A DNA stretch of 64,000 nucleotides from assembly GCA_963695335.1 (NCBI GenBank), contig OY968764.1, positions 640,001 through 704,000 on the forward strand. Direction: 5' to 3'. The notes below the pieces were generated by a model. The model searched no databases, was not told the DNA's origin, and saw only the letters and a program-made list of their open reading frames with translations. Within the stretch, counting starts at the first letter, position 1. The number at the start of each line of letters is the position of its first letter. Position numbers and translations under genes: made by a program. Below, in pieces: positions 36,802 to 58,796 of the stretch. This DNA comes from an uncultured bacterium (GTDB taxonomy: Bacteria > Babelota > Babeliae > Babelales > Vermiphilaceae).

Positions 36802-37860
36802 ATGTATAATTATATCGTTAAGTTGTATTTTTTCGCGCTCGTCCTGAACTTGTTGAAGGATTTCTTCGAGCGCTCAAAGATATCCTTCGACAGGCTCAGG
36901 ACGAGCGCAGGAAAGAAAGTTTTTCTTGCAATGATTGTTGGAATGTATTGTGTGCAAAGCGTGCGTCCAATGGAGCCTGAAAAGTGGAATGGTGATACAA
37001 AAAATGATGTTGCAATAGAGATGTATCATTTTTGGTCCAATGATTATAATCAAAATATCAATAATATAAAGAATGTTGATTTAAAAGAAATTCGGTCAAC
37101 TTTAAATAAAGAAGATTTTTTATCCAGTTCTGATGATACATTAAAGCATCTCTTGTATCTTTCTACGATACGTAAAAATGACGATAAAACGCTTTTTACG
37201 CAAAAACAACAGAATAAGTTTGATGCAGCTTTTAAAACAAAACAATCTGTTCCTATGTGGTTTGGTATTAACGGAGCAGTTATTGTTGGTACATCACTTT
37301 TGCCATGTATTAATTTTACTGGTTTATTACAATGTTCAAATGCAACATTAGTTGGGTGTTTATCTCAACTTGTTACTATCACAACGCCAACAGTAGCTTC
37401 TGTGGCAGGAGCTCTTACTGTGGGGTTTGTGTCTTTATATGCTACGGGACTTTCGCCTGATTATTCTTCTCGTAAAGCAAATAAAGTGCAAGATGAAATA
37501 GGTCATTTGCGTACAAATTATGCAACAATAGCCAAATATTGGATTGATATTTATTTTAAATATCCAGAAAAAGCCCAGTACATTGCTCAAAAAATTGATA
37601 TTGAAGCGTTGAGAACAAGGGCGCAATTAAAAACGCATAAAAAGAGAAGTGGCAGCTCTTTGGTGACTCCTCTTGAAGAAGCATGGCATTTTATTACGCA
37701 TAAGACTGTTCTGATAACATTTACGGAAATTGAAAATTACCTTTATAATAAGATGCATAGCCAAGATATCGATCTTTTTAAGAGACGAATTGAATCCCTT
37801 GAAAGCATTATTTATCAACAAAATGCAGAAATACAAAAATTGAAACAAGAAAAAATATGA
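36802..37860 (+). CDS. Hypothetical exported/membrane protein with in-frame palindromic repeat near the N-terminus
   Basis: GAGGGG RBS before ATG 36802; two TM segments; coiled C-terminus. Confidence 0.65.
   Translation: MYNYIVKLYFFALVLNLLKDFFERSKISFDRLRTSAGKKVFLAMIVGMYCVQSVRPMEPEKWNGDTKNDVAIEMYHFWSNDYNQNINNIKNVDLKEIRSTLNKEDFLSSSDDTLKHLLYLSTIRKNDDKTLFTQKQQNKFDAAFKTKQSVPMWFGINGAVIVGTSLLPCINFTGLLQCSNATLVGCLSQLVTITTPTVASVAGALTVGFVSLYATGLSPDYSSRKANKVQDEIGHLRTNYATIAKYWIDIYFKYPEKAQYIAQKIDIEALRTRAQLKTHKKRSGSSLVTPLEEAWHFITHKTVLITFTEIENYLYNKMHSQDIDLFKRRIESLESIIYQQNAEIQKLKQEKI
36835..36908. repeat. Palindromic repeat, family A (compact 74-bp form); contains two empty IS110 target sites
   Basis: gcgctcgtcctgaacttgttgaagga...tccttcgacaggctcaggacgagcgc. 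Confidence 0.9.
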
Positions 37861-39782
37861 AAAAAAATAGTTTTTACGTCACTACTCCCATCTATTATGT
37901 CACAGCCAAACCTCATTTGGGATCATTGTATACCACATTACTTGCCGATGTTATTGCCCGTTGGAATAAACTGCTGGGCAATGACACATTTTTTTTAACA
38001 GGTACTGATGAGCATGGGCAAAAGATAGCACAAGCTGCAGCCGCCGCAGGAAAACAACCAAAAGAGTTTGTGGATAGTTTTATTCCTGATTATAAACATG
38101 CATGGCAGATGTATGACATTCAGTACGATAAATTTATTCGTACAACGGATCCAGATCATGTTAAAGGTGCACAAAAATTTACCACTGAGTTGATGGAAAA
38201 GGGGTATGTGTATAAATCTGTTTATGAAGGTTGGTATTGCACATCATGCGAAACATTTGTAGAAGAAATTCATGCAGGTGATCAACGGCTTAAAGGACCA
38301 CAATGCCCAACGTGCGGCAGAGATACGCATATTGTTTCTGAAGAAACATATTTTTTTAAACTGTCTGCGTTTACTGATAAACTTTTGACGTTTTATAAAG
38401 AAAATCCTGATTTTATTGTTCCCAAAGAACGCGCGAATGAAGTGATCAATTTTGTTGCATCAGGATTAAAAGATTTGAGTATTTCCCGAACAACGGTTAA
38501 GTGGGGTATACCATTCCCGAATGATCCTCATCACACATTGTATGTCTGGGTGGATGCATTATCAAATTATATTACCGGTGTTGGGTATGGACAGCCAGAT
38601 AAAATAGATGAGTTTCATAAACGTTGGCCAGCAAATGTGCATCTTCTTGGAAAAGATATTGTACGGTTTCACGCAGTGTTTTGGCCAGCATTTTTGATGG
38701 CTGCAGATTTACCTCTACCAAAACAATTATTAGTCCATGGTTGGATTAAAGTTGATAAACAAAAGATGTCAAAATCTCTTGGCAATGTTGTTGATCCTGT
38801 TGAATTACAAAAAAAATATGGGACCGATCCAATTCGTTATTATTTATTGCGTCAGATTCCGATAAACCAAGATGGTGATTTTAGTATTACTGATGTTGAA
38901 AATCGTATAGAATCTGATCTTGCTAATGATTTGGGTAATTTATTAAATCGTATGTTGGTGCTTGCTGAGAAGTATGATTTGTTTGATGTTGCACCGTGTA
39001 CAGTGTGGTCACCTGCATCATTGGATTTGCGTGATGCAAGTTGGAATGCGATTGAAGATTTTACTGCGCATATGAATGAGTATATGTTTCATCATGCATT
39101 ATCAAGTTTGTGGAAATTTATCAGTAGTACGAATGCGTATTTCCATGGGCAGGAGCCTTGGAAAGTTGCTAAGATTGATCAACAGTTGTTTGCAGAAATT
39201 ATTTCAGCTACGTGTCACAGTTTGCGTACCATTGCACTGTTATTGTGGCCAGTAATGCCACAAAAAATGGAAGAACTTTTACATAGTATTGGTGTTGAAT
39301 TTAAGTTAGAAAATCATACGCTTGAAAATTTAGAACTAAATAGTTGGAATAAACATTTTATGTTGAAGAAATCACCCACTTTGTTTGAGAAGCCTATTAA
39401 AGAAATTGAAGAGGAAAAAATGTCACAAGAAGTTGTACAACAAGAAGAGAAATCATACATCACAATCGATGATGTTGTTAAAGTTGAATTGTTAACCGGA
39501 ACTATTGAAGCGTGCACTGATGTTGCAGGTTCAGATAAGTTGGTGCAAATGACGGTTGATTTGGGAGTGCATGGTAAACGTACTATTTTAGCAGGAATTA
39601 AAAAAGATCATGCGCCATCAGAATTGGTTGGCAGACGTGGACTGTTTATTACCAATTTAAAGCCACGCAAAATGGCTGGAACAGAATCACAAGGTATGAT
39701 GCTTGTTGCAGAAGATGCAGATGGCAAAGTGCAGCTTGTGCAATTCCCTGACAGTGTTGGTAACGGTGTGAGATTGAGATAG
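37857..39782 (+). CDS. metG: Methionine--tRNA ligase with C-terminal tRNA-binding domain
   Basis: YVTTPIYY...PHLG, TGTDEHGQK, KMSKS, NLKPRKMAG.ESQGM. Confidence 0.97.
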   Translation: MKKNSFYVTTPIYYVTAKPHLGSLYTTLLADVIARWNKLLGNDTFFLTGTDEHGQKIAQAAAAAGKQPKEFVDSFIPDYKHAWQMYDIQYDKFIRTTDPDHVKGAQKFTTELMEKGYVYKSVYEGWYCTSCETFVEEIHAGDQRLKGPQCPTCGRDTHIVSEETYFFKLSAFTDKLLTFYKENPDFIVPKERANEVINFVASGLKDLSISRTTVKWGIPFPNDPHHTLYVWVDALSNYITGVGYGQPDKIDEFHKRWPANVHLLGKDIVRFHAVFWPAFLMAADLPLPKQLLVHGWIKVDKQKMSKSLGNVVDPVELQKKYGTDPIRYYLLRQIPINQDGDFSITDVENRIESDLANDLGNLLNRMLVLAEKYDLFDVAPCTVWSPASLDLRDASWNAIEDFTAHMNEYMFHHALSSLWKFISSTNAYFHGQEPWKVAKIDQQLFAEIISATCHSLRTIALLLWPVMPQKMEELLHSIGVEFKLENHTLENLELNSWNKHFMLKKSPTLFEKPIKEIEEEKMSQEVVQQEEKSYITIDDVVKVELLTGTIEACTDVAGSDKLVQMTVDLGVHGKRTILAGIKKDHAPSELVGRRGLFITNLKPRKMAGTESQGMMLVAEDADGKVQLVQFPDSVGNGVRLR

Positions 39783-39815
39783 TCAACTACATAATAAAAA
39801 TAAGATTCTTTTTCT

Positions 39816-39999
39816 GCGCTCATCAGCTTCTCCCATCTTCGATTTTTCTTGATGGGGACCCCGATTCAACCCCATTTCCATTATATTCCAATGGGGACCC
39901 CAATTCAGCCCCATTTCCATTTCTTCCAATGGGGACCCCAATTGGAGTAAGACGTAAATTGGGGATAAAAATTGGAGCTAAAGGATATCTTCGAGCGCT
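39816..39999. repeat. Composite repeat: three GGGGACCCC-centred units (family C) with a family A remnant
   Basis: GGGGACCCC at 39854, 39893, 39931; aaggatatcttcgagcgct at 39981-39999. Confidence 0.8.
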
Positions 40000-40012
40000 T
40001 TTGGTAAAATTC

Positions 40013-41080
40013 ATGAAAAATATAAACATCATTTTTTTGTTACTTATCAGTAATGTAATTATCGGAATGGAAGCTGAACGTAAAAGTTTGGCTTCCTTTT
40101 TTTGTGTTGAGAAATGTGTGCAAAATGAAGACATTTGTACAGTAGTTGCGCAGCAGCATGTGTCCGATCAGAAATGGTGGTATATGGATAAAGAAATTCA
40201 GTATATCAACCAAGGTTGTTTAGATGCATCGTATCAGAAAAAAAACAGTTTTGCTTTTGTGCATTTTAATAAAGCCTGTACAGAAATAATAATTTTTCCC
40301 GGGGGTATTGGGGATTGTTTTATATGTGTGTGTGATAGAAAAAGCGGAAAGGAACGGGAGCGTATTTTTTTTGAAGATTATAATGAGGTCAATTTTTCTT
40401 ACCCTCAAATATGGGCGGATAGACTTTATTCCTCAACTCGTGCTCCTCAGGTCAGTTATAATGAGGGTTTATGGTGTGGTGAGTATTCTTTTTGTGAAGA
40501 ATCTGGAGGATTGAAGGAGGCTCTTGTAGTAGTAAAGCGTGAATATATGTGTGGTCGTGTAACAAATATTAATGAATCCAAAGCTTGTGTGTGGGATAGA
40601 ATAGAAGGAAAGGAATCATTACAGCTTGTGCATGATGGTCCAGTTAATATGGCACATTTTAATCCGCAAGGTATAGAAATAATAACGGCATCAGATGATT
40701 GTACAATGCGTTTATGGCATAGCAAAACAGGGCAAGAGTTGTTGCGTATCGCATATGGTACCTGTGTTCAGTCAGCATGGTTTAATGAGATGGGAACGGA
40801 AATGGTGGTTGCAACCGATGATGGTAACATACAAATTTTTGCGCAGTATAAGACTGATAATTTGCCACAAGTCTTGCTGAAAAAATTATTGCATCTATGG
40901 TTGCAATTGCAAAAGCCAAGTAAAAAAATTGATTCACCTGAAAAATTATTAGATAATGTTGCTCAATTGTTATCGTGTGATAAGAATGAAATGAATATAA
41001 CATGGCAATCGTTTCCAAAACATATGCAGAAAGCGATGTGGTTATCGATGCATAATAAGATTCAGAAATATGGAAAGTAA
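40013..41080 (+). CDS. Secreted WD40 protein (type 1)
   Basis: Signal peptide; HDGPVNMAHFNPQGIEIITASDDCTMRLW; paralog of 42976-44064. Confidence 0.8.
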   Translation: MKNINIIFLLLISNVIIGMEAERKSLASFFCVEKCVQNEDICTVVAQQHVSDQKWWYMDKEIQYINQGCLDASYQKKNSFAFVHFNKACTEIIIFPGGIGDCFICVCDRKSGKERERIFFEDYNEVNFSYPQIWADRLYSSTRAPQVSYNEGLWCGEYSFCEESGGLKEALVVVKREYMCGRVTNINESKACVWDRIEGKESLQLVHDGPVNMAHFNPQGIEIITASDDCTMRLWHSKTGQELLRIAYGTCVQSAWFNEMGTEMVVATDDGNIQIFAQYKTDNLPQVLLKKLLHLWLQLQKPSKKIDSPEKLLDNVAQLLSCDKNEMNITWQSFPKHMQKAMWLSMHNKIQKYGK

Positions 41081-41095
41081 ACATAAAGAGCAATA

Positions 41096-41824
41096 ATGAA
41101 GTATGCATATTTAGTTTTTTTGATGAGTATTAGCAACGGTTTTTTATTTTCTATGGAAATGGACTTTGCATCTAGAGATAAAATATGGCGGGTTGATAGA
41201 GAGATTCAGTGTGAGAAGTTGCCTACTTCTTATCGTGGTCAAGAATATTCATTTAAAGATTGGTTGAGATTTATACATTTTAGTAAAAATGGTACAGAGA
41301 TTATAGGGTGGAATCGTGGATTTCCTCTTTGTCTTGTATGGGATAGAAAGAGTGGAATATTGTTAGCGCGGGTCGAAGATGCCACTGCTAATAATCCTGT
41401 ATTTGACGAACCAAGATGGAAAGATAGATTGCCTGAACCACATTTTCCTAAGGAATATCCTGAAGGGTGGAAGAAAGATTTTAATGATTATGACTTAGAA
41501 GAAGAGTCAGAAACTTTGGTGTTAGCAACTAAGAACAAAGAATACCAAGTTTGTGTGTGGGATAAAAGAGAAAAAAGAGAGACATTGCAGCTTGTGCATG
41601 AGAATAGAGTGAATCAGGCACATTTTAATAGAAAAGGTATAGAAATAATCACAGCATCGCAAGATGGTACAATGCGTTTGTGGCATTCACAGACAGGGCA
41701 AGAGTTGTTGCGTATGAATCATGCCTCAAATGTAACAGATGCAGAATTTAATGAAATGGGAACGGAAATAGTTGTTGCAAGAGAAGATGGTAAGATACAA
41801 ATTTTAGTACAAGAAGTTAAATAA
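41096..41824 (+). CDS. Secreted WD40 protein (short type 2)
   Basis: HENRVNQAHFNRKGIEIITASQDGTMRLW; paralog of 44061-44840. Confidence 0.8.
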   Translation: MKYAYLVFLMSISNGFLFSMEMDFASRDKIWRVDREIQCEKLPTSYRGQEYSFKDWLRFIHFSKNGTEIIGWNRGFPLCLVWDRKSGILLARVEDATANNPVFDEPRWKDRLPEPHFPKEYPEGWKKDFNDYDLEEESETLVLATKNKEYQVCVWDKREKRETLQLVHENRVNQAHFNRKGIEIITASQDGTMRLWHSQTGQELLRMNHASNVTDAEFNEMGTEIVVAREDGKIQILVQEVK

Positions 41825-41829
41825 AATTC

Positions 41830-42948
41830 ATGAAAAATATAAACATCATTTTTTTGTTACTCATCAACAATCTTATTAATGCAATGGAAGTGGTTTCTGT
41901 ACCTGCAAATTTCCCTGTTGACTGCAGAAACAGAATCCTTTTTTTTGAGCTTGCTCAAAACAGTCATAACTATGTTGATAAATATGCTGGTGGTGATTCT
42001 GTTAACTTTTCTGGTACTTTTGTTTCTAAAGGAAAGGGTTCTTATGACCCTTTGAGCGAAGTAAGACGTATTCTTTGTAAGATAAGTTGTCTCAATTGGG
42101 AATGGTATGAAAAGCTTGATCAACAGAGGAATAATCCTGTTGCTGCGCGTACTATGATGCAAAATATTGGCATTACTTGCTATTCAAATTTTTTTGGCAA
42201 TAACAGATCTCCTTTTATATCGTATATTGTTAATCGATTTTGTACTCTAGGTGCACAAAAATGCCGTGAATTGAGCTGTCAGTTGTATGATAAAGATCTT
42301 AGTCCAGAAAAAGTTGAGCAATTATATAAAGAAGGAGCTGTTCTTGATTATTGGAATAGAGGACCAAAGGAGACTGTTCTTCGTTATTGGATTATAAAAA
42401 ATGATAAGAATAGTATAGAAATTGTGGAAAAGCTTTTACAATTAGGTGCAAATCCTGATGCTTATTATGAAGAGAGTAATTATTCTCCTCTACCACTAGT
42501 TGTGTGTAATAATAATGTTGATGTAGTTAAATTGTTATTGAGTTATAAAGCAAGAAAGCAATGGTATTGGGTTTTTCGAGACCAGCCTCCTAAATGTATT
42601 GATCTTTTTATTGATTATTCCACAAAAGATGAACTTACTGATGGATTAATTGCTTGTGTTAGATGCAGGGATTATTTACCAGAAATTATGCAGAAATTGA
42701 TTGATAAGGGAGCAAACCCGAGCGCTGCACTCCCTTATGTTTTTACATCTATGATAGAGAATGTTGGTAAATCTACACCTGATCATGATGCATTTAGACA
42801 ATTACGCGTACAAGTGTATGATTTTCTTTGCGCTCAACAAGCGTATGATGCAGAGGTCTACAATAAGATACAAAATCTACAGGAGTTTTTGAGTTCTCTG
42901 GTCAATAAACTTGAACAAAATAAACCGATTTTTGATGATGGTATTTAG
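41830..42948 (+). CDS. Secreted ankyrin-repeat-like protein
   Basis: IVEKLLQLGANPD, SPL..V....VDVVKLLLSY, KLIDKGANP. Confidence 0.75.
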   Translation: MKNINIIFLLLINNLINAMEVVSVPANFPVDCRNRILFFELAQNSHNYVDKYAGGDSVNFSGTFVSKGKGSYDPLSEVRRILCKISCLNWEWYEKLDQQRNNPVAARTMMQNIGITCYSNFFGNNRSPFISYIVNRFCTLGAQKCRELSCQLYDKDLSPEKVEQLYKEGAVLDYWNRGPKETVLRYWIIKNDKNSIEIVEKLLQLGANPDAYYEESNYSPLPLVVCNNNVDVVKLLLSYKARKQWYWVFRDQPPKCIDLFIDYSTKDELTDGLIACVRCRDYLPEIMQKLIDKGANPSAALPYVFTSMIENVGKSTPDHDAFRQLRVQVYDFLCAQQAYDAEVYNKIQNLQEFLSSLVNKLEQNKPIFDDGI

Positions 42949-42975
42949 TGATGATTATTCAAAAGGGAGAAAATA

Positions 42976-44064
42976 ATGAAGAGTATGAAAGTTATTTTTT
43001 TGTTATTCGTGAGTAATCTAATTTTTCCCATGGAAGCTGAACGTAAAAGTTTGGCTTCCTTTTTTTGTGTTGAGCAATGTGTGCAACATCAAGATATTTC
43101 TCAGCATATTTCGCGGCACTGTTTGTCTGATCAGAAGTGGTGGTATGTGGATAAAGAGATTCAGTTTTATGGTTTTAAGCATCATAATAGTTATCATCCA
43201 ATTTTGGGCAGATATCCAAATTATTTAAGATGTGTCTGTTTTGATAGTGCTGGCACAAACATAATAGCTTTTCCTAATGAAGGATGGGGTGATCTTGCAT
43301 GCATATGGAATAGGGATGGAAAAGAGCTAGAGCGCTTAGATCAGGATGCTTTGTATACATTTTGTGACAGCAATGATCAATGGGCAAGTGAATTATATAA
43401 TTCAGGCAATAGTCCTTGGAAGCATGAGTATGCAAAGGATATGCAAAAGTTATTGGATGAGCAATTTGATTTGGCTTCCATGATATGCTGGAATGATGGA
43501 CAGGCTTTTGTGGCATCACAATTTAAAGCATATGGTTGTTGTAGAGTGCATGCTTGGAATCAAAAAGAAAATAAAATATTATTTACCATTCATCATCAAA
43601 ATCTTATTAATTCAGTGGCATTCAATCCACAGGGCATAGAAATGATAACGGCATCATCAGATAAAAGTATGCGTTTGTGGAACAAAAAAACTGGACAACA
43701 ATTATTGCGTATTAATTATGATACGCGTCTTACATCAGCAAGTTTTAATGGGTTGGGAACAGAAATGGTAGTTGCAACAGATGATGGTAACATACAAATT
43801 TTTGCAAAGTATTGTATAGATAATTTGCAGCACATATTATTGAAAAAACTGTTGCATCTATGGTTACAGTTGCAAATGCCAAATAAAGAAATTGATTCAC
43901 CTGAAAAATTATTAGATATTGTTGGGTGCATGTTGCACTGCAATTACGATGAAATAAAAGAAGCATGGCAATCATTTCCAGAGCATATGCAGAATGCTAT
44001 CTGGTTATCAATGCATAAAAAGATTCAGAGATATGGAATAATAAAAGAAGAGGAAAGTGTATGA
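42976..44064 (+). CDS. Secreted WD40 protein (type 1)
   Basis: HQNLINSVAFNPQGIEMITASSDKSMRLW; MEAERKSLASFFCVE shared with 40013. Confidence 0.8.
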   Translation: MKSMKVIFLLFVSNLIFPMEAERKSLASFFCVEQCVQHQDISQHISRHCLSDQKWWYVDKEIQFYGFKHHNSYHPILGRYPNYLRCVCFDSAGTNIIAFPNEGWGDLACIWNRDGKELERLDQDALYTFCDSNDQWASELYNSGNSPWKHEYAKDMQKLLDEQFDLASMICWNDGQAFVASQFKAYGCCRVHAWNQKENKILFTIHHQNLINSVAFNPQGIEMITASSDKSMRLWNKKTGQQLLRINYDTRLTSASFNGLGTEMVVATDDGNIQIFAKYCIDNLQHILLKKLLHLWLQLQMPNKEIDSPEKLLDIVGCMLHCNYDEIKEAWQSFPEHMQNAIWLSMHKKIQRYGIIKEEESV

Positions 44065-44840
44065 ACTGTAAGAATATTATTTTTTTGTTACTTGCGAGTA
44101 ATCTGATTGTTGCGATGGAGCCTGAACATAAAAGTTTTGCTATAACATATCATGAGAAATCTGATAAGCAATGGCGGATGGATAAAGAGATTCAGTTTAA
44201 TACTGAAAAAAAGGATATTCCAAAATTGATACGACATAAAAATGGTTTGAGAAGTGTATGTTTTGATCCCACCGGTAAAAAGATATTAGCTTTTCCTTGG
44301 CATGCCGATTGCTTTGTATGTATATGGGATAGAGATGGAAAAGCGTTGGAATCCTTAGATTTTGACGCTTTTGATCAATTTTCTGAAAATAATAGTGAAT
44401 GGTCTGATAGATTATTGAGTTCAGGTAATTCCCCTGCTTTTCCAATCTATGAAGGTGATGATAGACAGTTATTGGAAAAAGAATTTGGTTGGTTGCCAAT
44501 GGTATGTTTTAATGAAGAACAAGTTTTTGTAGTGCCAAAGTTTAGGGTGTATGGTGGTCATAATGCGTACGCATGGAATCGCTCAGAACAGAAAAGATTG
44601 TTTAGTCTTAAGCATACAGACATAATCTATTCTATAGATTTTAATCCAAAGGGCATAGAAATAATAACTGCATCAGCAGATAAAACTGTGCGTTTGTGGG
44701 ATGCAAAAACAGGTAAAGAATTAGTATGCATTGGTTATGATACACGTGTTACATCTGCAAGTTTTAATCAAGATGGTACAGAGATAGTTGTTGCAACGGA
44801 TGATGGTAAAATACGAGTTTTGGTACAAGATAATAAATAA
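44061..44840 (+). CDS. Secreted WD40 protein (short type 2)
   Basis: HTDIIYSIDFNPKGIEIITASADKTVRLWD. Confidence 0.8.
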   Translation: MNCKNIIFLLLASNLIVAMEPEHKSFAITYHEKSDKQWRMDKEIQFNTEKKDIPKLIRHKNGLRSVCFDPTGKKILAFPWHADCFVCIWDRDGKALESLDFDAFDQFSENNSEWSDRLLSSGNSPAFPIYEGDDRQLLEKEFGWLPMVCFNEEQVFVVPKFRVYGGHNAYAWNRSEQKRLFSLKHTDIIYSIDFNPKGIEIITASADKTVRLWDAKTGKELVCIGYDTRVTSASFNQDGTEIVVATDDGKIRVLVQDNK

Positions 44841-44864
44841 GTTGTTGATATAAAGTAAAAAATA

Positions 44865-44955
44865 TGAGTTTGTATGTTTCGACAAGCTCAACACGAACGG
44901 AGAAAAAAAATATTTAATCCCGTTCGTGCTGAGCCTGTCGAAGTATACGAACTCA
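44865..44955. repeat. Palindromic REP-like repeat, family A
   Basis: tgagtttgtatgtttcgacaagctcaacacgaacgg...ccgttcgtgctgagcctgtcgaagtatacgaactca. Confidence 0.9.
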
Positions 44956-44978
44956 TTAGGTTTAATAGGATTTGTAGA

Positions 44979-46061
44979 ATGCACAAATTATTAACATCAT
45001 TATTATGTGCCGTTATTTTCACTTGTTCTGTTATTGGAATGGAAAAAGAAATATCAGTTCCTGCAAATTTTCCTGATGATTGTAAAAATAAAATATTGAT
45101 TGATTATCTTGTTAAAGATGTTCATAAGCAAATCAAAAATTTTCATAAAGATAGTTGTTATTGTTTTGGTTATAGCGTTGATCAGGTTTGTAGGTTAGCA
45201 GGGCGCCTCATTGTGAGAATTAGTCGCATCAATTGGGATTTTTATAAGATACTGGAAAAAGAAAGAAATGATCCTGTTGCCACTCGTACTATGCTTAAAA
45301 ATATTGTATCTACCTATTATCCAAATCATGAAGGCACTGAATTAGAGATGGTTCATTGGTTTAAGAGTCCTGGGGCACAAAAATGCATTAGATTGAGTAA
45401 TCAATTATTTTTGACTGGAATGACTCCAGAAAAAATTGAACAGTTATATAATGAGGGTGCCTTTCTTAATTATTATGATAGCTATAATTATGTTGATCCT
45501 AGTAAAGAGACGGTTCTGAGTTATTGGGTTGATTGTGGGGCTCAAGAAAGTGACATTATTGTTGAAAAACTTCTTCAGTTGGGAGCAAATCCTAATCTTA
45601 GTGAAGGATATACTTCTTTTCCTTTGATTAAGGCAATGCGAAGGAATAGCATTGAAAAAATTAAATTATTACTGAGCTATAAGGCAAAAAAAGAGTGGTA
45701 TAATGTGTTGTCATGTATATTGTATCATCGTTATATTGATACGATTATTGCTTATTGCACCAAAGATGAGCTTAATGATGGATTGGTTGCTTGTGTTGAT
45801 GCATATGCTTATCGACCAGAAATTATGCAAAAATTGATTGATAATGGAGCAGAACCTAGCGCTGCGCTGCCTCATGTATTAAAAAATATAATTGAAAAAG
45901 TTGATATATTGGATTCAGATAATTCGGCAGTACTCAATTTCAATTTCCTTTGTAATCAAGGAGCATATGATCAAACTGTTTTTGATAAGGTGAAAAATTT
46001 ACAAATAATTTTTGGTGCTCTTGCCAATAATCTTGAAAAGAATAAAGTATTAGAAACTTAA
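44979..46061 (+). CDS. Secreted ankyrin-repeat-like protein
   Basis: Signal peptide from ATG 44979; VPANFP.DC and IVEKLLQLGANP shared with 41830. Confidence 0.75.
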   Translation: MHKLLTSLLCAVIFTCSVIGMEKEISVPANFPDDCKNKILIDYLVKDVHKQIKNFHKDSCYCFGYSVDQVCRLAGRLIVRISRINWDFYKILEKERNDPVATRTMLKNIVSTYYPNHEGTELEMVHWFKSPGAQKCIRLSNQLFLTGMTPEKIEQLYNEGAFLNYYDSYNYVDPSKETVLSYWVDCGAQESDIIVEKLLQLGANPNLSEGYTSFPLIKAMRRNSIEKIKLLLSYKAKKEWYNVLSCILYHRYIDTIIAYCTKDELNDGLVACVDAYAYRPEIMQKLIDNGAEPSAALPHVLKNIIEKVDILDSDNSAVLNFNFLCNQGAYDQTVFDKVKNLQIIFGALANNLEKNKVLET

Positions 46062-46110: not shown

Positions 46111-46128
46111 GCTCAAAAATAAGAAAAA

Positions 46129-47682: not shown

Positions 47683-47700
47683 ATTACTTTCTCCTAGCTA

Positions 47701-49466: not shown

Positions 49467-49473
49467 TTTTATA

Positions 49474-49647
49474 AGCGCTCGAAGATATCCTTTAACCCCA
49501 ACAATCGTTACACTCTTATTGGGGACCCCGATTGGAACGGAGTGAAAATTGGGGTAAAAGATATCCTTCAACCTGTCTTCGCCAAGGCTTCGGCAGGCAC
49601 GGCAAGTTCTTAAGACAGGTGTTTACTAGTGAGCCTGTCGAACTATC
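49474..49647. repeat. Nested palindromic repeat cluster (family A host with family C, family D and a further insert)
   Basis: agcgctcgaagatatcctt; C unit 49496-49554; D unit 49572-49602; actagtgagcctgtcgaacta at about 49625-49645. Confidence 0.8.
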
Positions 49648-49664
49648 AGCGATTATGATCAAAG

Positions 49665-50630
49665 TCAAGTAGAATAGGCATTTTTATTAGGTGCCCACTT
49701 TCTATTTTCAGTAAGAAGAACATTAGCAAGTATAATAAACTTGCGCATTACAGCAATTAGGGCAATCTTAGATGGTTTTCCTTCTTCACGTAATCGCTCA
49801 TAAAATTTCTTAAAATCTGGATTATGTTGAACAGCTGAAAGTGTAGGCATATACAGCATTTTTCGTGGTAAGGATCTACCTTCTCTAATGATAGATTTTT
49901 TCTTATAATTACCACTTTCATTGGTGTATGGAGCTACGCCTAATAAGGCTGCAACTTGCTTATTTCCAATACTTCCTAATTCAGAAAAAAAAGCAATTAA
50001 CGTTGCTGATGTTCCTTTTCCAGCACCAGGAATTGATGTGATAATATTTTGCTTATGTTTCCAGTCATCATCATTATCAATTAATTGTTCTATTTCTTTT
50101 TCCAATTCCTTAACTTGTTCATCCATAAAATCAATATGTTGTTGAATTTTGTCTTTACAAAATTCAACTTGTGGATGAGCCAATCGTGTTTTTTCTCGAC
50201 TGATCATTCCCGTCAAATCACTTTTCCTTCTTATTAAAGCTTTCAATAATTCTTCATTCTCTTTTGGCACTTTAATGCGTGTTTCCTCTGATAATTCTTT
50301 TTGTTGTGCAAACAAAGCAATCATAGATGCATCAATCTTGTCTGTTTTTGCTTTTGCTCCATCTGATGCGATAAACGACTTAATTCGTTTCGGCTCAATT
50401 AGCCATACAAAATATCCAGCATTACTTAATGTACGAATCAATAATTTTTCGTATCCACCAGATGATTCACATACAACGCGAACAACATTGTACTCAGAAA
50501 ATACATTAAGTATTTTATTGAGACCAGCGGCGCTATTTGGCGTTTTAAAATATTGATTCAATGGACGTAAAAAAACATCCAAATTATCTTTTGAAATATC
50601 GACACCAACAAATATTTCTGTTAGCTTCAT
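49665..50630 (-). CDS. IS110 family DEDD transposase/recombinase
   Basis: VGVDISK (D), CESSGGYE (E), KTDKIDA (DD); C-terminal SIPGAG...LGVAP..NESG with putative catalytic Ser. Confidence 0.95.
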   Translation of the reverse strand: MKLTEIFVGVDISKDNLDVFLRPLNQYFKTPNSAAGLNKILNVFSEYNVVRVVCESSGGYEKLLIRTLSNAGYFVWLIEPKRIKSFIASDGAKAKTDKIDASMIALFAQQKELSEETRIKVPKENEELLKALIRRKSDLTGMISREKTRLAHPQVEFCKDKIQQHIDFMDEQVKELEKEIEQLIDNDDDWKHKQNIITSIPGAGKGTSATLIAFFSELGSIGNKQVAALLGVAPYTNESGNYKKKSIIREGRSLPRKMLYMPTLSAVQHNPDFKKFYERLREEGKPSKIALIAVMRKFIILANVLLTENRKWAPNKNAYST

Positions 50631-50808
50631 AGTAATTCTTCCTCATAATACGAGCCTTGCGCTCAAGCGATTATTCGAATCTTCTACAAATCTGGTTGAT
50701 AGCTCTTTAGCTGAAAACGGTTCTTGTAACCTAGGACGAGCACAAGACGCTATCAACCTTTTTTTATAGCCTAGTTTCCTAAACCTAAAAAACTCAATAA
50801 TCTACATG
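50631..50808 (-). ncRNA. Predicted bridge RNA of the IS110 element
   Basis: 5' hairpin; target loop closed by GGTTGATAGC/GCTATCAACC carrying GCTCGTCCT and TTCAG; donor loop carrying ATAATCGCT and TATGAG; exact ends inferred. Confidence 0.85.
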
Positions 50809-50855
50809 CTTTTATCATATGAGGACGAGCGCGAGAAAGGATTGGATTTAAAGTG

Positions 50856-50892
50856 TATGCGGTGAAGAAAATTTTTTTTCACCGCATATTTA
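50856..50892. terminator. topA terminator hairpin
   Basis: tatgcggtgaa/ttcaccgcata. Confidence 0.7.
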
Positions 50893-53142: not shown

Positions 53143-53415
53143 GAGTATCTTTTTAGGTTTAGCTGATAATTATGTTGTAACATAGTACTCCTTTTCCATT
53201 TTTTTGCATTACTTTATCTATAATAGAGGATCTATTTTCAAAAAGTCAAATAATTATACCCCAGATTTTTAGTTAAAGCTTTAATCCGAGGACTTCTTAA
53301 TAAGAATTAAGAGGAAATTAACTCTCCGGGAGGCGAGATTTCTTGGTGGATTGTTAAAAACCGGACTTTTGTGTAAAATAGATAGCAATAAATCTTTAAA
53401 CTGATCGGGGGTAAA

Positions 53416-53802: not shown

Positions 53803-53806
53803 TTGC

Positions 53807-53931
53807 ACCCTTCGATACATTCTCTTCCGCAAAGCTACAGAGAACACTCAGGGCGAGCGGTGGGAGGTGCAATAAGTTATTTTCTTCCGCTCGTCCTGAG
53901 TGTTTTTGCTTGCAAAAATGTATCGAAGGGT
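53807..53931. repeat. Palindromic repeat, family B
   Basis: acccttcgatacat...cactcagggcgagcgg...ccgctcgtcctgagtg...atgtatcgaagggt. Confidence 0.9.
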
Positions 53932-54006
53932 AGCGTATCGGAGAACTTGCTGAAAGAATGAATATTTTATAAGTTAAAGAATAAAAAATAAATTTAGGGA
54001 TAACGC

Positions 54007-54783
54007 ATGACATTACTCCAATCATGGGCAGATTCATTAACATTACTTAAGCCAAAGAACTTACAACTTTTTGTGATGGTGACAATTAAATCAATTATCG
54101 AAGCGTACAAATTATATTTTAAATATTTTTGGTGGTTAATATTGGCAATGCCAATTTTTTTATTTATAGCACCAGACGTTGCAGCAGCTTGGAAAAATAA
54201 TGATGGTAACAGTTTAGCTCACTACGCTACGATAGTTGGTATCGCAGCTTCATTGTATGGATTGCTTTTTTTAGCGGCTTGTTTTGCCACACGCCCTTCT
54301 ATTTTGCAAAAAGATTGTGCTTATTTCCGTACTCAATTCAAAAAAATTATTGTGTACTGGTTTGTGTGGGGGATCTTCAGAGTACTATTGATGAAATACG
54401 CAGTATCATTTGGCAAAACAGCTTTTTACATAGGAAACATATCTTTTAATAAAACAGCTTTTTATGTAGGAAACACCTCTTTATGTGCACCAGAACTTAT
54501 ATTTTTTATTCTCTTTTTTGCTGATTCAGATGGAGGATTAAAAAATATTTTTGTTTCTTTTTGGAACACATTAAAAATGATCGTTTATAATCTTCCTTTG
54601 ATATTTTTGATTAATCTTATTTTTGGTATCTCTTTATTTGTGTTCAGTTATTTTTTTAATATTTCTCCCTTGATGCAAATTATTATTGGAGCGTTTTTGA
54701 TGCCAATTGGTGTGTGCACATACGCCAATATTTATATTAAAAGGTTGCATGATCAATTTGATCTCTATTTTAAGCAGCCATAA
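54007..54783 (+). CDS. Hypothetical multi-pass membrane protein
   Basis: Several TM segments; AGGGA RBS. Confidence 0.7.
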   Translation: MTLLQSWADSLTLLKPKNLQLFVMVTIKSIIEAYKLYFKYFWWLILAMPIFLFIAPDVAAAWKNNDGNSLAHYATIVGIAASLYGLLFLAACFATRPSILQKDCAYFRTQFKKIIVYWFVWGIFRVLLMKYAVSFGKTAFYIGNISFNKTAFYVGNTSLCAPELIFFILFFADSDGGLKNIFVSFWNTLKMIVYNLPLIFLINLIFGISLFVFSYFFNISPLMQIIIGAFLMPIGVCTYANIYIKRLHDQFDLYFKQP

Positions 54784-54794
54784 TAGGAAAATGT

Positions 54795-55526
54795 ATGAAA
54801 ATTGGAATGGTTGTACGGAATCTTTTTTCACGTTTTTTACTTGTTGTTATTACGATTGTTTTTCTTATTCCGATTATTATCTTTCTTTGTATTCCAGAAA
54901 AATATCGTTATAAATATCCGATCTTTTTTTATCCTGTACACTGGTTTTACGTTCTTATATTAAAAGGTTCGATGTTGCCAATCACATACAAAGGAGTTGA
55001 TAATATTCCCAAAGATAAGCCAGTTATTTTTGTGGCAAATCATCAATCAGCCTTAGATATTCCTCTGCTTGGTGTATTATCAAAATATGTTCCTCACGTG
55101 TGGCTTGCAAAAGCAGAGTTGATGGATTCTATTTTTATTAGATGGATAATACCATTATTATCGGTGCTTGTTGACGTTGATTCACCAAGAGCAGCAATGC
55201 TTTCGCTGCGTAAAATATTAAATGTAGTGAATAATCATCATCGTAATCTTATGATATTTCCAGAAGGAACTCGGTATACAGACGGTAAGATTCATGAGTT
55301 TCTTGGCGGTTTTGTGATTCTCGCAAAAAAATTAGGACGTCCTGTGGTGCCTGTGTGTATTATTGGTATTAACAAAGCGTATCCACCAGAAACGTTTTGG
55401 GTGCAGTGGTATCCAATTACGGTGATTGTGGGTAAGCCGTTTATGTATGAAGAGAATGATACGGATGAAGCATTTAAAGATAGAGTGCATCAGTGGTTTG
55501 TTGAACAAGTGGAGCAAAATGCGTGA
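54795..55526 (+). CDS. plsC: 1-acyl-sn-glycerol-3-phosphate acyltransferase
   Basis: NHQSALD, IFPEGTR, PVVPV. Confidence 0.9.
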   Translation: MKIGMVVRNLFSRFLLVVITIVFLIPIIIFLCIPEKYRYKYPIFFYPVHWFYVLILKGSMLPITYKGVDNIPKDKPVIFVANHQSALDIPLLGVLSKYVPHVWLAKAELMDSIFIRWIIPLLSVLVDVDSPRAAMLSLRKILNVVNNHHRNLMIFPEGTRYTDGKIHEFLGGFVILAKKLGRPVVPVCIIGINKAYPPETFWVQWYPITVIVGKPFMYEENDTDEAFKDRVHQWFVEQVEQNA

Positions 55527-56518
55527 TTAACCATTTTTTTTTACGTTGCGCGTATCCGTTATATACCGCCATTTTGATTGCTGTTATTGTTGCGGTTATG
55601 TTGGCACGTAAATTTTTACACAAAACAGTTGTGTATTGTTATTCATTGGGGCATGCGCTTAAAAAAAGTAGTCGTGCCACGTCTCATATCCATAAAAAAG
55701 TTTTTTATATTCTACGTTTGCTTGTTTTAATTCTTCTTGCGCTGTTGATTGCAAAGCCTCAAGTTGTTGATTCCCGTTCCAAAATTCCTGTGCAAGGTAT
55801 TGATATTGTTTTGGTGCTTGATGTCTCTGGCAGTATGCAGTTTAGAGATTATGAAGATGATAATCGCTCCCGTTTTGACGTTGCAAAATCGGAAGCGATT
55901 CATTTTATTGAAAAGCGTGATAATGATGCGCTTGGTCTTGTTTTGTTTGGTAAAGATACTGTATCGCGTTGTCCCATTACCTTTGATAAGCAGCTGTTAC
56001 AAAATGTGGTTGATGAGCTACAACTTGGCGTTATAGATTCTGATGGCACTATGTTGGTTACGGGCATTGTTACTGCAGCAAACCGTTTAAAACATTCAAA
56101 ATCAAAAACAAAAGTGATGATTGTGTTAACTGATGGCGAACCAAGTGAAGGGGATATGGATCCATCAGTTGGTATTGAAGTTGCACAAAAATTAGGCATA
56201 AAAATATACACCATTGGTATTGGTAGTGAACAGGAACAAATTTTTAGACATCAATTTTATGGTATGATGATTCGCCCAAAAGTGAATAAAGAGTTGTTAA
56301 CGAGTATTGCACAACAAACGGGCGGATCATATTTCTTTGCGCGCAGCGCTGCAGATATGCGCCGCGTGTATGATACCATTGATGCGTTGGAGCGCACAGA
56401 TCATGAAGTTCCACATTTTAGCTTGTATTATGATTTGCTCGTTCCATTTATTGCGGTTATTATGGCGGCTCTTTTTTGTGAGCTATTACTTTCAACATAT
56501 ATATGGTTTTCATTATGA
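55523..56518 (+). CDS. batA: BatA-like vWA membrane protein
   Basis: GIDIVLVLDVSGSM, LTDGE, IKIYTIGIG, IAQQTGG.YF.A. Confidence 0.85.
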   Translation: MINHFFLRCAYPLYTAILIAVIVAVMLARKFLHKTVVYCYSLGHALKKSSRATSHIHKKVFYILRLLVLILLALLIAKPQVVDSRSKIPVQGIDIVLVLDVSGSMQFRDYEDDNRSRFDVAKSEAIHFIEKRDNDALGLVLFGKDTVSRCPITFDKQLLQNVVDELQLGVIDSDGTMLVTGIVTAANRLKHSKSKTKVMIVLTDGEPSEGDMDPSVGIEVAQKLGIKIYTIGIGSEQEQIFRHQFYGMMIRPKVNKELLTSIAQQTGGSYFFARSAADMRRVYDTIDALERTDHEVPHFSLYYDLLVPFIAVIMAALFCELLLSTYIWFSL

Positions 56519-57513
56519 TATATATAACAGATATTCATTGGGCTACACCGAATAATATGTGGACGCTGTTGTTGGCATGTATTGCAGCATTGCTATTATG
56601 TGTGCGCTACAAAAAACAGTTACAAGCGCGATTCGCTTTGGTTGGAGTGCACACACAGTTTCTAAAAAATGTATCACCACAGAAACAGTTATTAAAATCT
56701 GTTTTGCTATCAGTTGGATTTTTATTTTTATGCTTTGCATTATTACGACCGCAGTGGGATAAATCTGAAGAAACGATTGTGCAAGAAGGGCGTGATTTAT
56801 ATATTGCGCTTGATATATCCCGTAGTATGCTTGCTACTGATTGTTCTCCCAATCGCCTGCACTTTGCAAAAGACAAAATTAAGCGCTTAGTAAAAAAGCT
56901 TTCTTGTGAACGTGTTGGGCTTATTCTTTTTTCTGGTTCTGCTTTTGTGCAATGTCCTTTAACATCGGATTATGGAGCATTTTATTTATATCTTGACGCA
57001 GTTGATGCAGAACTTATCTCTTCCGGAACAACTGCGCTTGATCAAGCTATTATACAAGCATTAACCTCGTTTGCATCTGCTCCAGATCGTAAAAGTAAAT
57101 TATTGGCACTGTTCACTGATGGTGAAGATTTTTCTCAGAATTTGAACAGTATAAAACAAGATGCAGCAGAATCTGGGCTTTCTATTTTTACGTTTGGTGT
57201 GGGAACTCCTGAAGGTGCTCCTGTTCCTCTGTTTGATGCTCATGGTAAACTTCTTGGTCATCAGAAAGATGCGCACGGTGGCATTGTTATTTCTCGCCTT
57301 AATGAAGGAATTTTACATTCACTTTCGCAAGATGCTGGTGGTAGATATATTAGATCGGTTGATAATGATGATGATATTGCAACATTTATTCGAGCGGTGC
57401 ATGCTTTTGAAAAAGAACAAATTTCGGAACGTAAGCATTCGCGGTATGAAGATCAATATCATTATTTTTTGCTGGTAAGTTTTATTTGTTTTGCGCTTGA
57501 GTGGTTATTATGA
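56515..57513 (+). CDS. batB: BatB-like vWA protein
   Basis: RPQW, ALDISRSMLATD.SPNRL, PLTSDY, TDGED, GVGTPEGAP. Confidence 0.85.
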   Translation: MIYITDIHWATPNNMWTLLLACIAALLLCVRYKKQLQARFALVGVHTQFLKNVSPQKQLLKSVLLSVGFLFLCFALLRPQWDKSEETIVQEGRDLYIALDISRSMLATDCSPNRLHFAKDKIKRLVKKLSCERVGLILFSGSAFVQCPLTSDYGAFYLYLDAVDAELISSGTTALDQAIIQALTSFASAPDRKSKLLALFTDGEDFSQNLNSIKQDAAESGLSIFTFGVGTPEGAPVPLFDAHGKLLGHQKDAHGGIVISRLNEGILHSLSQDAGGRYIRSVDNDDDIATFIRAVHAFEKEQISERKHSRYEDQYHYFLLVSFICFALEWLL

Positions 57514-58796
57514 AATTACATGTATCAAGTATGATGATTACTAAATTTATTAAATCAGTTAGAGCACCTCTCACCGCTCGCCCTGAGTGTTTTACGAAGC
57601 GTAGCGTAGTAAAATGTATCGAAGGGTGCAAAAATCAAAAGTTATTGTTATGTCGCATCCTGCGATACATTTTTGAAGACAAAAACACTCAGGACGAGCG
57701 GAGGGTAAGCAAGTGTATTTTTGTAGTCACCATTTTTATGACATCTTTCTTTACCCATCCTTTCTCCTACGATTCCGCAATTTATAAAGCTCAAAAGGGC
57801 AATTGGCAAGATGCGCACAGTGCATTAAGCAGTATTATTACGGATAATCCTGATAGAGCAGATGTTATGTATGATGCAGGAGTTGCTGCATATAATCTTG
57901 GCAACAAATGTCAGGCAGCAACTTGTTTTGCGCGTGCAGCTGAATGTAGTGCTGATAAAAATATTGCGTTTTGTGCTCATTTTAATGCGGGCAATACATA
58001 TGTTGATGAAAAAGAATTAGAACAAGCGCTTGTAGAATATGATAAAGCGCTTGCAATAGAATCTGATAATGAGTATGCGCGTCATAATCGTGATCGTGTT
58101 GCGCAGATGTTACAAGAGCAGGAAAAACAGCAAGAGAATAAGCAAGATGATCAGCAGCAGAATAAAGATCAAGAAAAAAATGAACAAAACCAGGATGACA
58201 AGCAAGATCAGGATAAGCAGCAAAAAGATAAGCAAGATGGACAGCAAGACAGCCAAGATTCCTCCTCCGCTGAAGCTTCGGCGGACAGGCAAAACCAAAA
58301 GCAAAATGGTAATGATAAAAAAGATGGTCAACAAAACCAAAACGGCAACGACACGCAAAATGAAAAAAACGACTCATCGCAAGATGAATTGTCAAATAAG
58401 CAATCCCAAGGTGATAGCGATCAAAGAGACGCTGCAAACAACAGCAAAGACACACAGCGACAAGAGTATGGGAAGAATAAAAAAGAGCGCCATCAAAATT
58501 CCACCAATGATAAGAAGGGGGATGGTAAAAATGAGTTTGATAAACAATCGCAAGATGCACAAAAAGAGGGCAATGAGCAACAAAGAGATAAACATGGAAC
58601 AACTCCTGGTCAACAAAATATAAGTGATGATAAAGATAATCTATCAGCGCAAGAGGGTCAAGAGCAAGCGATCACTGATCCATGGCTTTTGAGAATTCTG
58701 AATGATCAGGAAATGCTTGATAAGACAGTTAATAAACAGTTAATGGAAGCAAAAATTCGTCAACATGGTGGAAAAAATGGTCAAAATTGTTGGTAA
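57510..58796 (+). CDS. batC: BatC-like TPR protein with Q/D/K-rich tail
   Basis: TPR (AHFNAGNTY..ALVEYDKAL), low-complexity tail, C-terminal W; ATGA overlap with batB stop. Confidence 0.75.
   Translation: MKLHVSSMMITKFIKSVRAPLTARPECFTKRSVVKCIEGCKNQKLLLCRILRYIFEDKNTQDERRVSKCIFVVTIFMTSFFTHPFSYDSAIYKAQKGNWQDAHSALSSIITDNPDRADVMYDAGVAAYNLGNKCQAATCFARAAECSADKNIAFCAHFNAGNTYVDEKELEQALVEYDKALAIESDNEYARHNRDRVAQMLQEQEKQQENKQDDQQQNKDQEKNEQNQDDKQDQDKQQKDKQDGQQDSQDSSSAEASADRQNQKQNGNDKKDGQQNQNGNDTQNEKNDSSQDELSNKQSQGDSDQRDAANNSKDTQRQEYGKNKKERHQNSTNDKKGDGKNEFDKQSQDAQKEGNEQQRDKHGTTPGQQNISDDKDNLSAQEGQEQAITDPWLLRILNDQEMLDKTVNKQLMEAKIRQHGGKNGQNCW
57574..57701. repeat. Palindromic repeat, family B, in-frame in batC
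   Basis: ccgctcgccctgagtg...tgtatcgaagggtgc...gcatcctgcgatacat...cactcaggacgagcgg. Confidence 0.9.
58261..58289. repeat. Short GC-rich hairpin, family D, in-frame in batC
   Basis: cctcctccgctgaagcttcggcggacagg; similar to 49572-49602. Confidence 0.65.

What the first reader, a model, noticed from the sequence alone, without database searches (positions are those of the whole stretch)
36835..57701. The IS110 is programmed against the genome's own palindromic repeat, with empty targets in the window
The guide-defined target GCTCGTC-CT-GA is the conserved arm of repeat families A and B. Unoccupied 11-nt matches lie at 36837-36847 (extends to CTGAA), 36896-36906 (minus), 53889-53899 and 57689-57699 (minus). 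Single-mismatch arms (GTTCGTCCTGA, GCTCGCCCTGA) occur near 10069, 53849, 57576, 61410 and 62432. This parallels IS621 targeting of E. coli REP sequences but with a different repeat, suggesting repeats are used as safe landing sites.
Basis: partly seen in the sequence, partly recalled or inferred. Interest (0 to 1): 0.78.

Follow-up and report, generated by a model that had tools for sequence, protein, structure and literature searches.

The report
IS110 guided to host hairpin repeat
A small jumping gene in this bacterium carries a guide RNA that spells out one end of the host's most common hairpin repeat, and all three of its copies sit exactly there; this habit is already known from E. coli and Pseudomonas, and here some of the repeats lie inside essential genes, so they are only mostly safe landing sites.

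Summary
Observation confirmed. An intact IS621-type IS110 (49648-50823, minus) has left-end guides matching the target GCTCGTC-CT-GA and its own donor. All 3 identical genomic copies sit at that exact site in a hairpin-repeat arm. There are 72 free exact sites (Markov expectation 0.07-1.5), 71 of them in repeats. In related elements the guides change with their flanks (left 90 of 108 positions in 18 elements, shuffled mean 34). In 10 of 15 relatives tested the flank is a multi-copy repeat (5 clearly, 5 loosely). Two corrections. The guide is the arms' consensus but matches only about a quarter of them exactly. 'Safe' is only partly true: the repeat is inserted in frame in pheT and ddl (3 exact targets), and a chance target lies in murD. 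The repeat also brackets small UPF0213-like GIY-YIG nuclease genes, which probably spread it (inferred). IS110 targeting of REP repeats is published (IS621, ISPpu9/10), and this scan has noted both IS110-in-hairpin cases and the GIY-YIG/hairpin pairing on other DNA. Verdict: new member of a known kind.

The parts
49648..50823 (-). IS110 element, CT core to CT core (1176 bp including both cores); 3 identical copies in the genome
49665..50630 (-). IS110 recombinase, 321 aa, with D11/E55/D97/D100 and S239
   Evidence: Pfam PF01548 + PF02371; NF033542 above cut-off; PDB IS621 E 7.5e-40 and ISCro4 E 1e-41; residues
50631..50821 (-). 191-bp non-coding left end encoding the predicted bridge RNA
   Evidence: fold z -3.27 for 50628-50800; stems covary across 18 relatives
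50733..50741 (-). left target guide (9 of 9 match to left target plus core)
50711..50714 (-). right target guide (pairs with CTGA; the next base could pair with A, or with G by wobble)
50666..50674 (-). left donor guide (9 of 9 match to the element's right end plus core)
50642..50647 (-). right donor guide (6 of 6 match to core plus start of left end)
49663..49668 (-). -35 box TTGACT in the right end; sits 17 bp from the -10 box only in the excised circle
   Evidence: sequence; same geometry at the junctions of relatives
50814..50819 (-). -10 box TATGAT at the start of the left end
50824..50830 (-). left half of the occupied target (repeat arm), just downstream of topA and its terminator-like hairpin
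49472..49647 (-). right half of the occupied target and remainder of the interrupted, nested hairpin repeat
36835..36908 (.). family-A repeat dimer with two exact empty targets (36837-36847 +, 36896-36906 -); inside a naive ORF call but probably upstream of the true start (inferred)
53805..53931 (.). family-B repeat pair: 1-mismatch arm 53848-53858 (-) and exact empty target 53889-53899 (+)
57574..57702 (.). family-B repeat pair: 1-mismatch arm at 57576 (+) and exact empty target 57689-57699 (-), ahead of the probable start of the BatC-like TPR gene (inferred)
61408..61544 (.). nested family-A repeat inserted in frame (about 45 codons) in the M23 peptidase gene 61191-62369; 1-mismatch arm at 61410
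   Evidence: orthologue alignment
10049..10136 (.). family-A variant pair; arm 10069-10079 has a true (non-wobble) mismatch to the guide
62371..62472 (.). family-B pair with 1-mismatch arm at 62432

Best explanation
This is a recently arrived IS621-type IS110 bridge-recombinase element. It excises as a circle. The RE-LE junction builds a sigma-70 promoter (TTGACT, 17 bp, TATGAT) that drives a bridge RNA from the left end. The target loop pairs with GCTCGTC-CT-GA and the donor loop with the circle junction, and the DEDD/serine recombinase joins the two at the CT core. The target is the consensus 5' arm of the host's most abundant hairpin-repeat family (over 250 arms), so the element has dozens of mostly intergenic landing sites. 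The repeat is older than the IS and is probably spread by, or is the substrate of, small stand-alone GIY-YIG nucleases whose genes it brackets. The IS thus lives on another repeat system's products. SHOWN: anatomy, guide-target and guide-donor matches, 3 of 3 copies in repeat arms, covariation of guides with flanks in relatives, repeat present in relatives that lack the IS, repeat bracketing GIY-YIG genes. INFERRED: expression, circle formation and chemistry (from IS621), recency, the GIY-YIG role, and any selective benefit of targeting repeats.
For: Recombinase family and catalytic residues (IS621 residues from PMC11208158). Four guides match exactly. Three 100% identical copies, each at the exact target in a repeat arm. 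72 free sites, 71 in repeats. The guide equals the column consensus of the arms. Bridge-RNA stems: 44 cells with changes on both sides versus 16.7 shuffled, and 80% paired versus 33-49% when slid. Guide-flank covariation: left 90 of 108 versus shuffled mean 34 (max 65) in 18 elements; right 31 of 34 versus 10 in 17 elements. The target 11-mer has 22-65 copies in 8 of 10 same-genus genomes. None of the 10 has this IS by protein search; 1 of 10 has a more distant IS110. GIY-YIG bracketing: 13 of 20 genus loci; of 69 metagenome loci with enough flank, 36 have arms on both sides and 43 an inverted repeat of 16 nt or more (5.7% for non-cognate pairs).
Against: No direct sign of activity: no circle junction, empty allele or new site was seen. 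Only three insertions, so preference among arm variants is weakly sampled. Five of 15 relatives tested (G064, G231, G236, G030, G013) have a reconstructed target with 0-2 free copies, so repeat targeting is not universal in the clade. The permutation tests treat related elements as independent and overstate significance. RNAalifold on its own recovered only one 4-bp helix; the target-loop stems were named by me. The GIY-YIG's action on the repeat is untested. In this genome only a family-B-flanked GIY-YIG gene was found, no family-A one.
Confidence: 0.9

Rival explanations
1. The repeat is a non-autonomous miniature (MITE) or derivative of the IS110 itself, so the match reflects descent rather than targeting.
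For: IS110-derived MITEs were noted by this scan in another genome (e1-5396283, unchecked). Both IS flanks are repeat sequence.
Against: BLASTN of the whole element against the genome finds only the 3 full copies. The free repeats carry target, not donor or RE/LE, sequence. The repeat is abundant in 8 of 10 same-genus genomes in which this IS was not found, and it brackets GIY-YIG genes instead.
Confidence: 0.03
2. Guides are not tuned to repeats by selection for safety. An IS arriving with whatever guide it has simply persists and multiplies only where that guide happens to have many targets (target abundance, not safety).
For: Exact targets lie in ddl, pheT and murD. Five of 15 relatives have non-repeat targets. 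Three of 3 intergenic insertions are expected from the target distribution alone.
Against: Related elements hit several different repeat families in their own hosts (G135 42 free copies, G119 32, G120 17, G242 10, G174 9), which shows a recurrent bias towards repeats whatever its cause. Most targets are outside genes.
Confidence: 0.5
3. Target choice also needs the repeat's hairpin structure (as reported for ISPpu10), so the lone non-repeat 11-mer in murD would not be used.
For: All 3 insertions are in hairpins in which the left target can pair with the distal arm. A stem-loop gate is reported for ISPpu10 (10.64898/2026.03.19.712850).
Against: With 71 of 72 free sites in repeats, sequence alone predicts the 3 of 3 result. 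The sequence 5' of the target differs among the three sites, so no conserved 5' stem-loop of the ISPpu10 kind is evident. Folding z-scores of 24 reconstructed empty sites were mostly unremarkable.
Confidence: 0.2

Closest known systems
IS621 of E. coli (IS110 group; Durrant et al. 2024 PMC11208160, Hiraizumi et al. 2024 PMC11208158)
   Same: DEDD + serine recombinase, CT core, 11-bp target (7+2+2), 191-bp left end holding the bridge RNA, sigma-70 promoter formed at the circle junction, insertion into a host palindromic repeat.
   Different: Different guides and a different repeat; host is a small AT-rich genome; the right end is very short (15 bp from stop to core); the guide matches its natural sites with no mismatch; some targets lie in frame in essential genes.
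ISPpu9, ISPpu10, ISPa11 and other REP-targeting IS (Tobes and Pareja 2006 PMC1525189; Na et al. bioRxiv 10.64898/2026.03.19.712850)
   Same: Every copy breaks the repeat at the same position; many empty targets, often in inverted pairs.
   Different: Those REPs are 97% extragenic for ISPpu10 and carry a conserved 5' stem-loop. Here the target is at the outer 5' end of a long hairpin, and the repeat is linked to GIY-YIG genes, not to a RAYT.
Ssn nucleases with NTS/SRM repeats (Chenal et al. 2025 PMC11893778), as closest known home for the target repeat
   Same: About 95-aa stand-alone GIY-YIG gene bracketed by inverted copies of a hairpin repeat that is dispersed genome-wide.
   Different: The published SRM search pattern finds 0 matches in this genome. 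The protein's best PDB relatives are UPF0213 proteins (1zg2, 1ywl), not shown to be cd10448.
Rickettsia palindromic elements and intragenic CGTC REPs (described in PMC3733652)
   Same: Palindromic repeats inserted in frame in housekeeping genes such as tRNA synthetases.
   Different: Different sequence; the inner stem and loop do not fit the 8-9-bp stem, 4-5-nt loop description of CGTC families. That paper's consensus figure was not visible to me.

Membership tests
IS110 family, IS110 (IS621-like) group | RuvC-like DEDD domain (PF01548) plus C-terminal PF02371 domain with catalytic serine | tested here: met
   D11/E55/D97/D100/S239
IS110 family, IS110 (IS621-like) group | Long non-coding left end and short right end; element bounded by a 2-nt core rather than by a long target duplication | tested here: met
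   LE 191 bp, RE 15 bp beyond the stop, CT at both ends; flanks of the 3 copies diverge outside the target
IS110 family, IS110 (IS621-like) group | Bridge RNA with target- and donor-binding loops whose guides match target and donor | tested here: met
   LTG 9/9, RTG 4/4, LDG 9/9, RDG 6/6; covariation in relatives; stems
IS110 family, IS110 (IS621-like) group | Promoter reconstituted at the circle junction | tested here: met
   TTGACT-17 bp-TATGAT by sequence; same geometry in relatives. Sequence only; activity not tested
IS110 family, IS110 (IS621-like) group | Circular intermediate, expressed bridge RNA, recombination activity | not testable with these tools
   only low-depth DNA contigs were available
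IS110 family, IS110 (IS621-like) group | Handshake guides | not tested
   positions not mapped
REP-targeting IS, type 1 association (Tobes and Pareja) | All copies inserted at the same position of the repeat | tested here: met
   3 of 3
REP/REPIN with RAYT (for the target repeat) | Repeat flanks a Y1 tyrosine transposase (RAYT) gene | tested here: not met
   the 3 PF01797 genes of G000 are near-identical IS200-like copies with their own end hairpins, not flanked by this repeat
REP/REPIN with RAYT (for the target repeat) | Extragenic, multi-copy, palindromic, often in inverted pairs | tested here: inconclusive
   multi-copy, palindromic and paired: yes. Mostly extragenic, but 14 pattern hits (probably one spurious) lie deep in 7 long ORFs, with in-frame insertion confirmed for 3 genes
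Ssn/SRM system (for the target repeat) | Small single-domain GIY-YIG gene bracketed by inverted repeat copies | tested here: met
   13 of 20 genus loci; 36 of 69 metagenome loci
Ssn/SRM system (for the target repeat) | Repeat matches the published degenerate SRM pattern | tested here: not met
   0 matches genome-wide (pattern)
Ssn/SRM system (for the target repeat) | Protein belongs to cd10448 | not testable with these tools
   no CDD here; best PDB hits are UPF0213 proteins; that its motif looks cd10456-like is recalled, not tested
Ssn/SRM system (for the target repeat) | Site-specific cleavage of the repeat as ssDNA | not testable with these tools
   needs purified protein

The most novel reading that the evidence does not exclude
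A three-tier parasitism. A UPF0213-type GIY-YIG nuclease cassette (distinct from Ssn and from RAYT) seeds hundreds of hairpin repeats, some in frame in essential genes. One IS110 clade in this phylum has repeatedly rewritten its bridge-RNA guides to follow different arms and families of those repeats. Here the guide sits on the arm consensus, where G-T/U-G wobble would extend its reach from 67 to 166 of 274 arms. This would be a natural, phylum-wide record of guide reprogramming tracking a moving target made by another mobile system, and a test bed for how bridge RNAs acquire new guides.
Probability: 0.35. Interest if true: 0.62.

Novelty: new member of a known kind. Interest (0 to 1): 0.38.

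Why it matters
It adds a compact, intact bridge recombinase with fully readable guides from a little-studied lineage. It also gives a set of 18 elements (this one and 17 relatives) that keep one RNA scaffold while guides and targets change together, useful for studying how guides are reprogrammed in nature. It refines the safe-harbour idea: the targeted repeat is mostly intergenic but also sits in frame in pheT and ddl, so abundance may matter as much as safety. It ties IS110 target choice to repeats associated with small GIY-YIG nucleases rather than RAYTs. The principle itself (IS110 guides spelling a REP) is already published.

Tried and rejected
(1) Reads: 5 runs listed, no RNA holder listed. 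4 were laid, all low-depth contigs from one study; no joints were seen. The two loose ends at the IS termini match the flanks of the other genomic copies, so there is no new site, empty allele or circle junction. This is uninformative, not negative. (2) RAYT as the repeat's partner: the 3 PF01797 genes are not flanked by it. (3) Wobble tuning as a clade rule: 4 of 18 left-guide mismatches and 2 of 14 right-guide mismatches in relatives are wobble-type, about the 1 in 6 expected by chance. All 3 real insertions here are at perfect sites, so use of wobble arms is not shown. (4) Hairpin strength of 24 reconstructed empty sites against dinucleotide shuffles: z from +1.0 to -4.4, not discriminating. 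(5) RNAalifold consensus found only one helix. (6) Search for left junctions of the same kind in 80 family genomes: 4 hits outside G000, none followed by a left end or preceded by a repeat, read as chance. (7) Rfam: 0 matches in the window. (8) Exact target counts were low in G111 (0), G231 (1), G064 (0), G236 (0), G030 (2, control 3) and G013 (2); G010, G026 and L004 were not counted. (9) Literature searches for the repeat's core 12-mers gave 12 papers whose titles are unrelated. Searches combining IS110 or repeats with this phylum and GIY-YIG with REP/REPIN/MITE terms listed nothing on this element or this repeat apart from the Ssn paper; (IS110 with safe, REP, target selection) listed only the known systems. 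(10) ESM Atlas for the GIY-YIG protein gave only generic GIY-YIG clusters; the nearest plasmid hit sits between nrdR and an RNA methyltransferase gene and its flanks were not analysed.
Full report
OBSERVATION. None appeared in 100 dinucleotide shuffles of the window. The window lies in a single-contig genome of 1.37 Mb and 36% G+C. I infer, from size, gene content and a one-order phylum of 261 genomes, that it belongs to the Babelota/Dependentiae; no call named it. Genome-wide there are 72 free exact sites against Markov expectations of 0.07-1.5, and 71 of the 72 continue into repeat sequence.

THE ELEMENT. ORF 49665-50630 (minus) is an IS110 recombinase: PF01548 and PF02371, NF033542 above cut-off, and closest solved relatives ISCro4 and IS621. 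D11, E55, D97, D100 and S239 correspond to IS621 D11/E60/D102/D105/S241 (PMC11208158 passages). The element runs from the CT at 50822-50823 to the CT at 49648-49649. Its 191-bp left end folds stably (z -3.27). It contains a 9-of-9 left target guide, a 4-of-4 right target guide, a 9-of-9 left donor guide and a 6-of-6 right donor guide. A TTGACT box in the right end and a TATGAT box in the left end would lie 17 bp apart in the circle. There are three 100% identical copies. Each is flanked by GCTCGTC-CT on the left and CT-GA on the right, and each rebuilt empty site is a repeat arm. All three are intergenic; the window copy lies between topA and a convergent DnaJ-domain gene.

RELATIVES. 22 of 261 phylum genomes, G000 included, have a match at E<=1e-20. 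I analysed 19 elements: this one, 17 from relatives at 42-49% identity, and locus L004 (44%). I dropped four matches below 33% identity, one contig-end copy (G199), duplicate copies, a second G110 element for which no locus was fetched, and the 76 more distant loci. They share one RNA scaffold (18 rows): 80% of cells pair, with 44 two-sided changes against 16.7 shuffled and 33-49% pairing when slid (a structure that I named). Guides differ between elements and follow their own flanks. Left guide: 90 of 108 positions in 18 elements (G026 lacked a junction), shuffled mean 34, maximum 65. Right guide: 31 of 34 at the two core-proximal positions and 54 of 68 at four, in 17 elements (two dropped for lack of register), shuffled means 10 and 23. 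Kin are not independent, so these figures overstate significance. Free copies of each element's own target, counted with patterns holding 0-2 degenerate positions, were G135 42, G119 32, G120 17, G242 10 and G174 9, with controls of 0-1. G110 had 5. G219, G150, G029 and G111 sit in or beside a looser hairpin family (40, 17, 8 and 7 matches at up to 2 mismatches; exact counts far lower). G064, G231, G236, G030 and G013 had 0-2. So repeat targeting is common (5 clear, 5 loose, of 15 tested) but not universal. G135 targets the same position of a related arm, yet the tree does not resolve it as sister to this element.

WHAT THE REPEAT IS. 274 arms can be defined from the sequence right of the core. 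The guide is their column-by-column consensus and the commonest single 11-mer (67), followed by one-change variants (61 and 26); 99 arms differ only by wobble-type changes and 108 by true mismatches. The exact 11-mer has 22-65 copies in 8 of 10 same-genus genomes, none of which yielded this IS, so the repeat is older than the element here; incomplete assemblies can hide an IS. The three Y1-transposase genes are not flanked by it. Small GIY-YIG genes are: 13 of 20 genus loci fetched have inverted arms on both sides, one truncated gene has an upstream arm only, and six (UvrC and two other subclades) have none. Among 80 metagenome loci, 69 had enough flank; 36 have arms on both sides and 43 have a cognate inverted repeat of at least 16 nt (non-cognate pairs 5.7%, direct-repeat control 12 of 69, only 1 of 8 loci below 45% identity). 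This is the layout of the Ssn/SRM system (PMC11893778), but the SRM pattern has 0 matches here and the protein's solved relatives are UPF0213 proteins. That these nucleases spread the repeat is an inference.

HOW SAFE. By a crude ORF caller, 48 of the 72 exact sites are outside any ORF of 80 codons or more. Of the other 24, most are near naive 5' ends or in doubtful ORFs and two supply stop codons. Four are in housekeeping genes. PheT carries a 28-residue repeat insertion absent from 4 of 4 orthologues. Ddl carries two: the first is shared with G257 and absent from 4 of 5 orthologues; the second is absent from 3 of 5, with other insertions at that spot in G251 and G249. MurD has a chance match. 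In the window, the arm at 61410 begins an insertion of about 45 codons in the M23 peptidase that the closest orthologue (G257) lacks; G251 appears to hold a decayed version. An insertion at such sites would probably be harmful or lethal (inferred), so the repeat is a mostly, not wholly, safe target. Three intergenic insertions cannot separate selection for safety from simple abundance.

ACTIVITY. Identity of the three copies suggests recent movement (inferred). One hint: the sister species G251 has the same arm behind topA, and its contig ends exactly at the CT core. That is where an assembly would fork if the site were filled in some cells and empty in others. It is a single observation.

COMPARISON AND NOVELTY. 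IS elements, including IS621, ISPpu9, ISPpu10 and ISPa11, that insert at a fixed point of REP repeats were catalogued in 2006 (PMC1525189; I read part 1 of 6). Bridge-RNA guidance of IS621 to REPs, with 144 of 173 mapped insertion sites in REPs, is in PMC11208160 (passages). ISPpu10 targets are 97% non-coding and need a stem-loop (10.64898/2026.03.19.712850; abstract, outline and section 7). In-frame repeats in genes are described in PMC3733652 (part 2 of 8 and passages). PMC11893778 was read as part 1 of 11, section 10 and passages, PMC11208158 as passages, and PMC12288879 only in search listings. I did not open supplements: the Durrant tables of natural guides and targets, and the consensus figure of PMC3733652, could already hold this clade or this repeat. 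My searches listed no paper on this element, or on an IS110 aimed at GIY-YIG-associated repeats. Earlier notes of this scan report IS110 elements in hairpin repeats and the GIY-YIG/hairpin pairing in other genomes (unchecked AI notes), and none on this genome or this sequence.

VERDICT. Real, well supported and mechanistically readable, but a new member of a known kind. The added value is the clade-wide reprogramming series, the link to a GIY-YIG-associated repeat, and the in-gene targets that qualify the safe-harbour reading. Interest 0.38.

Noticed in passing
G000:C1:565523-565810 (L124:1438-1725, minus) and loci L121-L136, L178-L257: 95-aa UPF0213-like GIY-YIG gene bracketed by inverted copies of the repeat. 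The arms on the two sides of one gene are often near-perfect mirror images over 40-100 bp, and the cassette has different neighbours in different genomes of the genus.
   Followed up: partly
G000:C1:205106-205318 and 895128-895328; L123, L130, L138, L139: Two other small GIY-YIG subclades, each preceded by a different conserved hairpin motif on the upstream side only.
   Followed up: no
window 61408-61544; G000:C1 149606, 150788 (ddl), 581946 (pheT), 847762 and 848410 (dprA), 1048887 (pgk), 166308 (glycosyltransferase): Hairpin repeats inside housekeeping genes in the reading frame, as with Rickettsia RPEs. Confirmed as insertions against orthologues for the M23 peptidase, PheT and Ddl; the others were not compared.
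   Followed up: partly
G251:C28 end (L281): The contig of a sister species ends exactly at the CT core of the orthologous target behind topA, a possible filled/empty fork.
   Followed up: partly
window 49472-49647 and 39800-40005: Repeats are nested in several layers: other small hairpin families sit inside the loop of the family-A repeat, and a short unit is tandemly repeated behind metG.
   Followed up: no
G000:C1:369218, 574578, 1166633: Three near-identical IS200-like (Y1 transposase) elements with terminal hairpins; G254 has 14 matches to that family.
   Followed up: partly
window 39929-46061: Tandem array of paralogous genes of about 240-395 aa with shared N-terminal sequence; one has WD40 hits, the last ankyrin hits.
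   Followed up: no
window 7097-8809 (minus): Collagen-like (Gly-X-Y) repeat protein of 570 aa.
   Followed up: no
L271 (G249:C28:1-2279): A distant IS110-family element in a same-genus genome, with a different layout (long non-coding sequence on both sides of the gene); its guides were not analysed.
   Followed up: no
L087 (G064), L091 (G029), L082 (G026): Irregular ends in relatives: a duplicated left-end start in G064, a right flank repeating upstream sequence in G029, and a right end followed by left-end-like sequence (possible circle or tandem junction) in G026.
   Followed up: no
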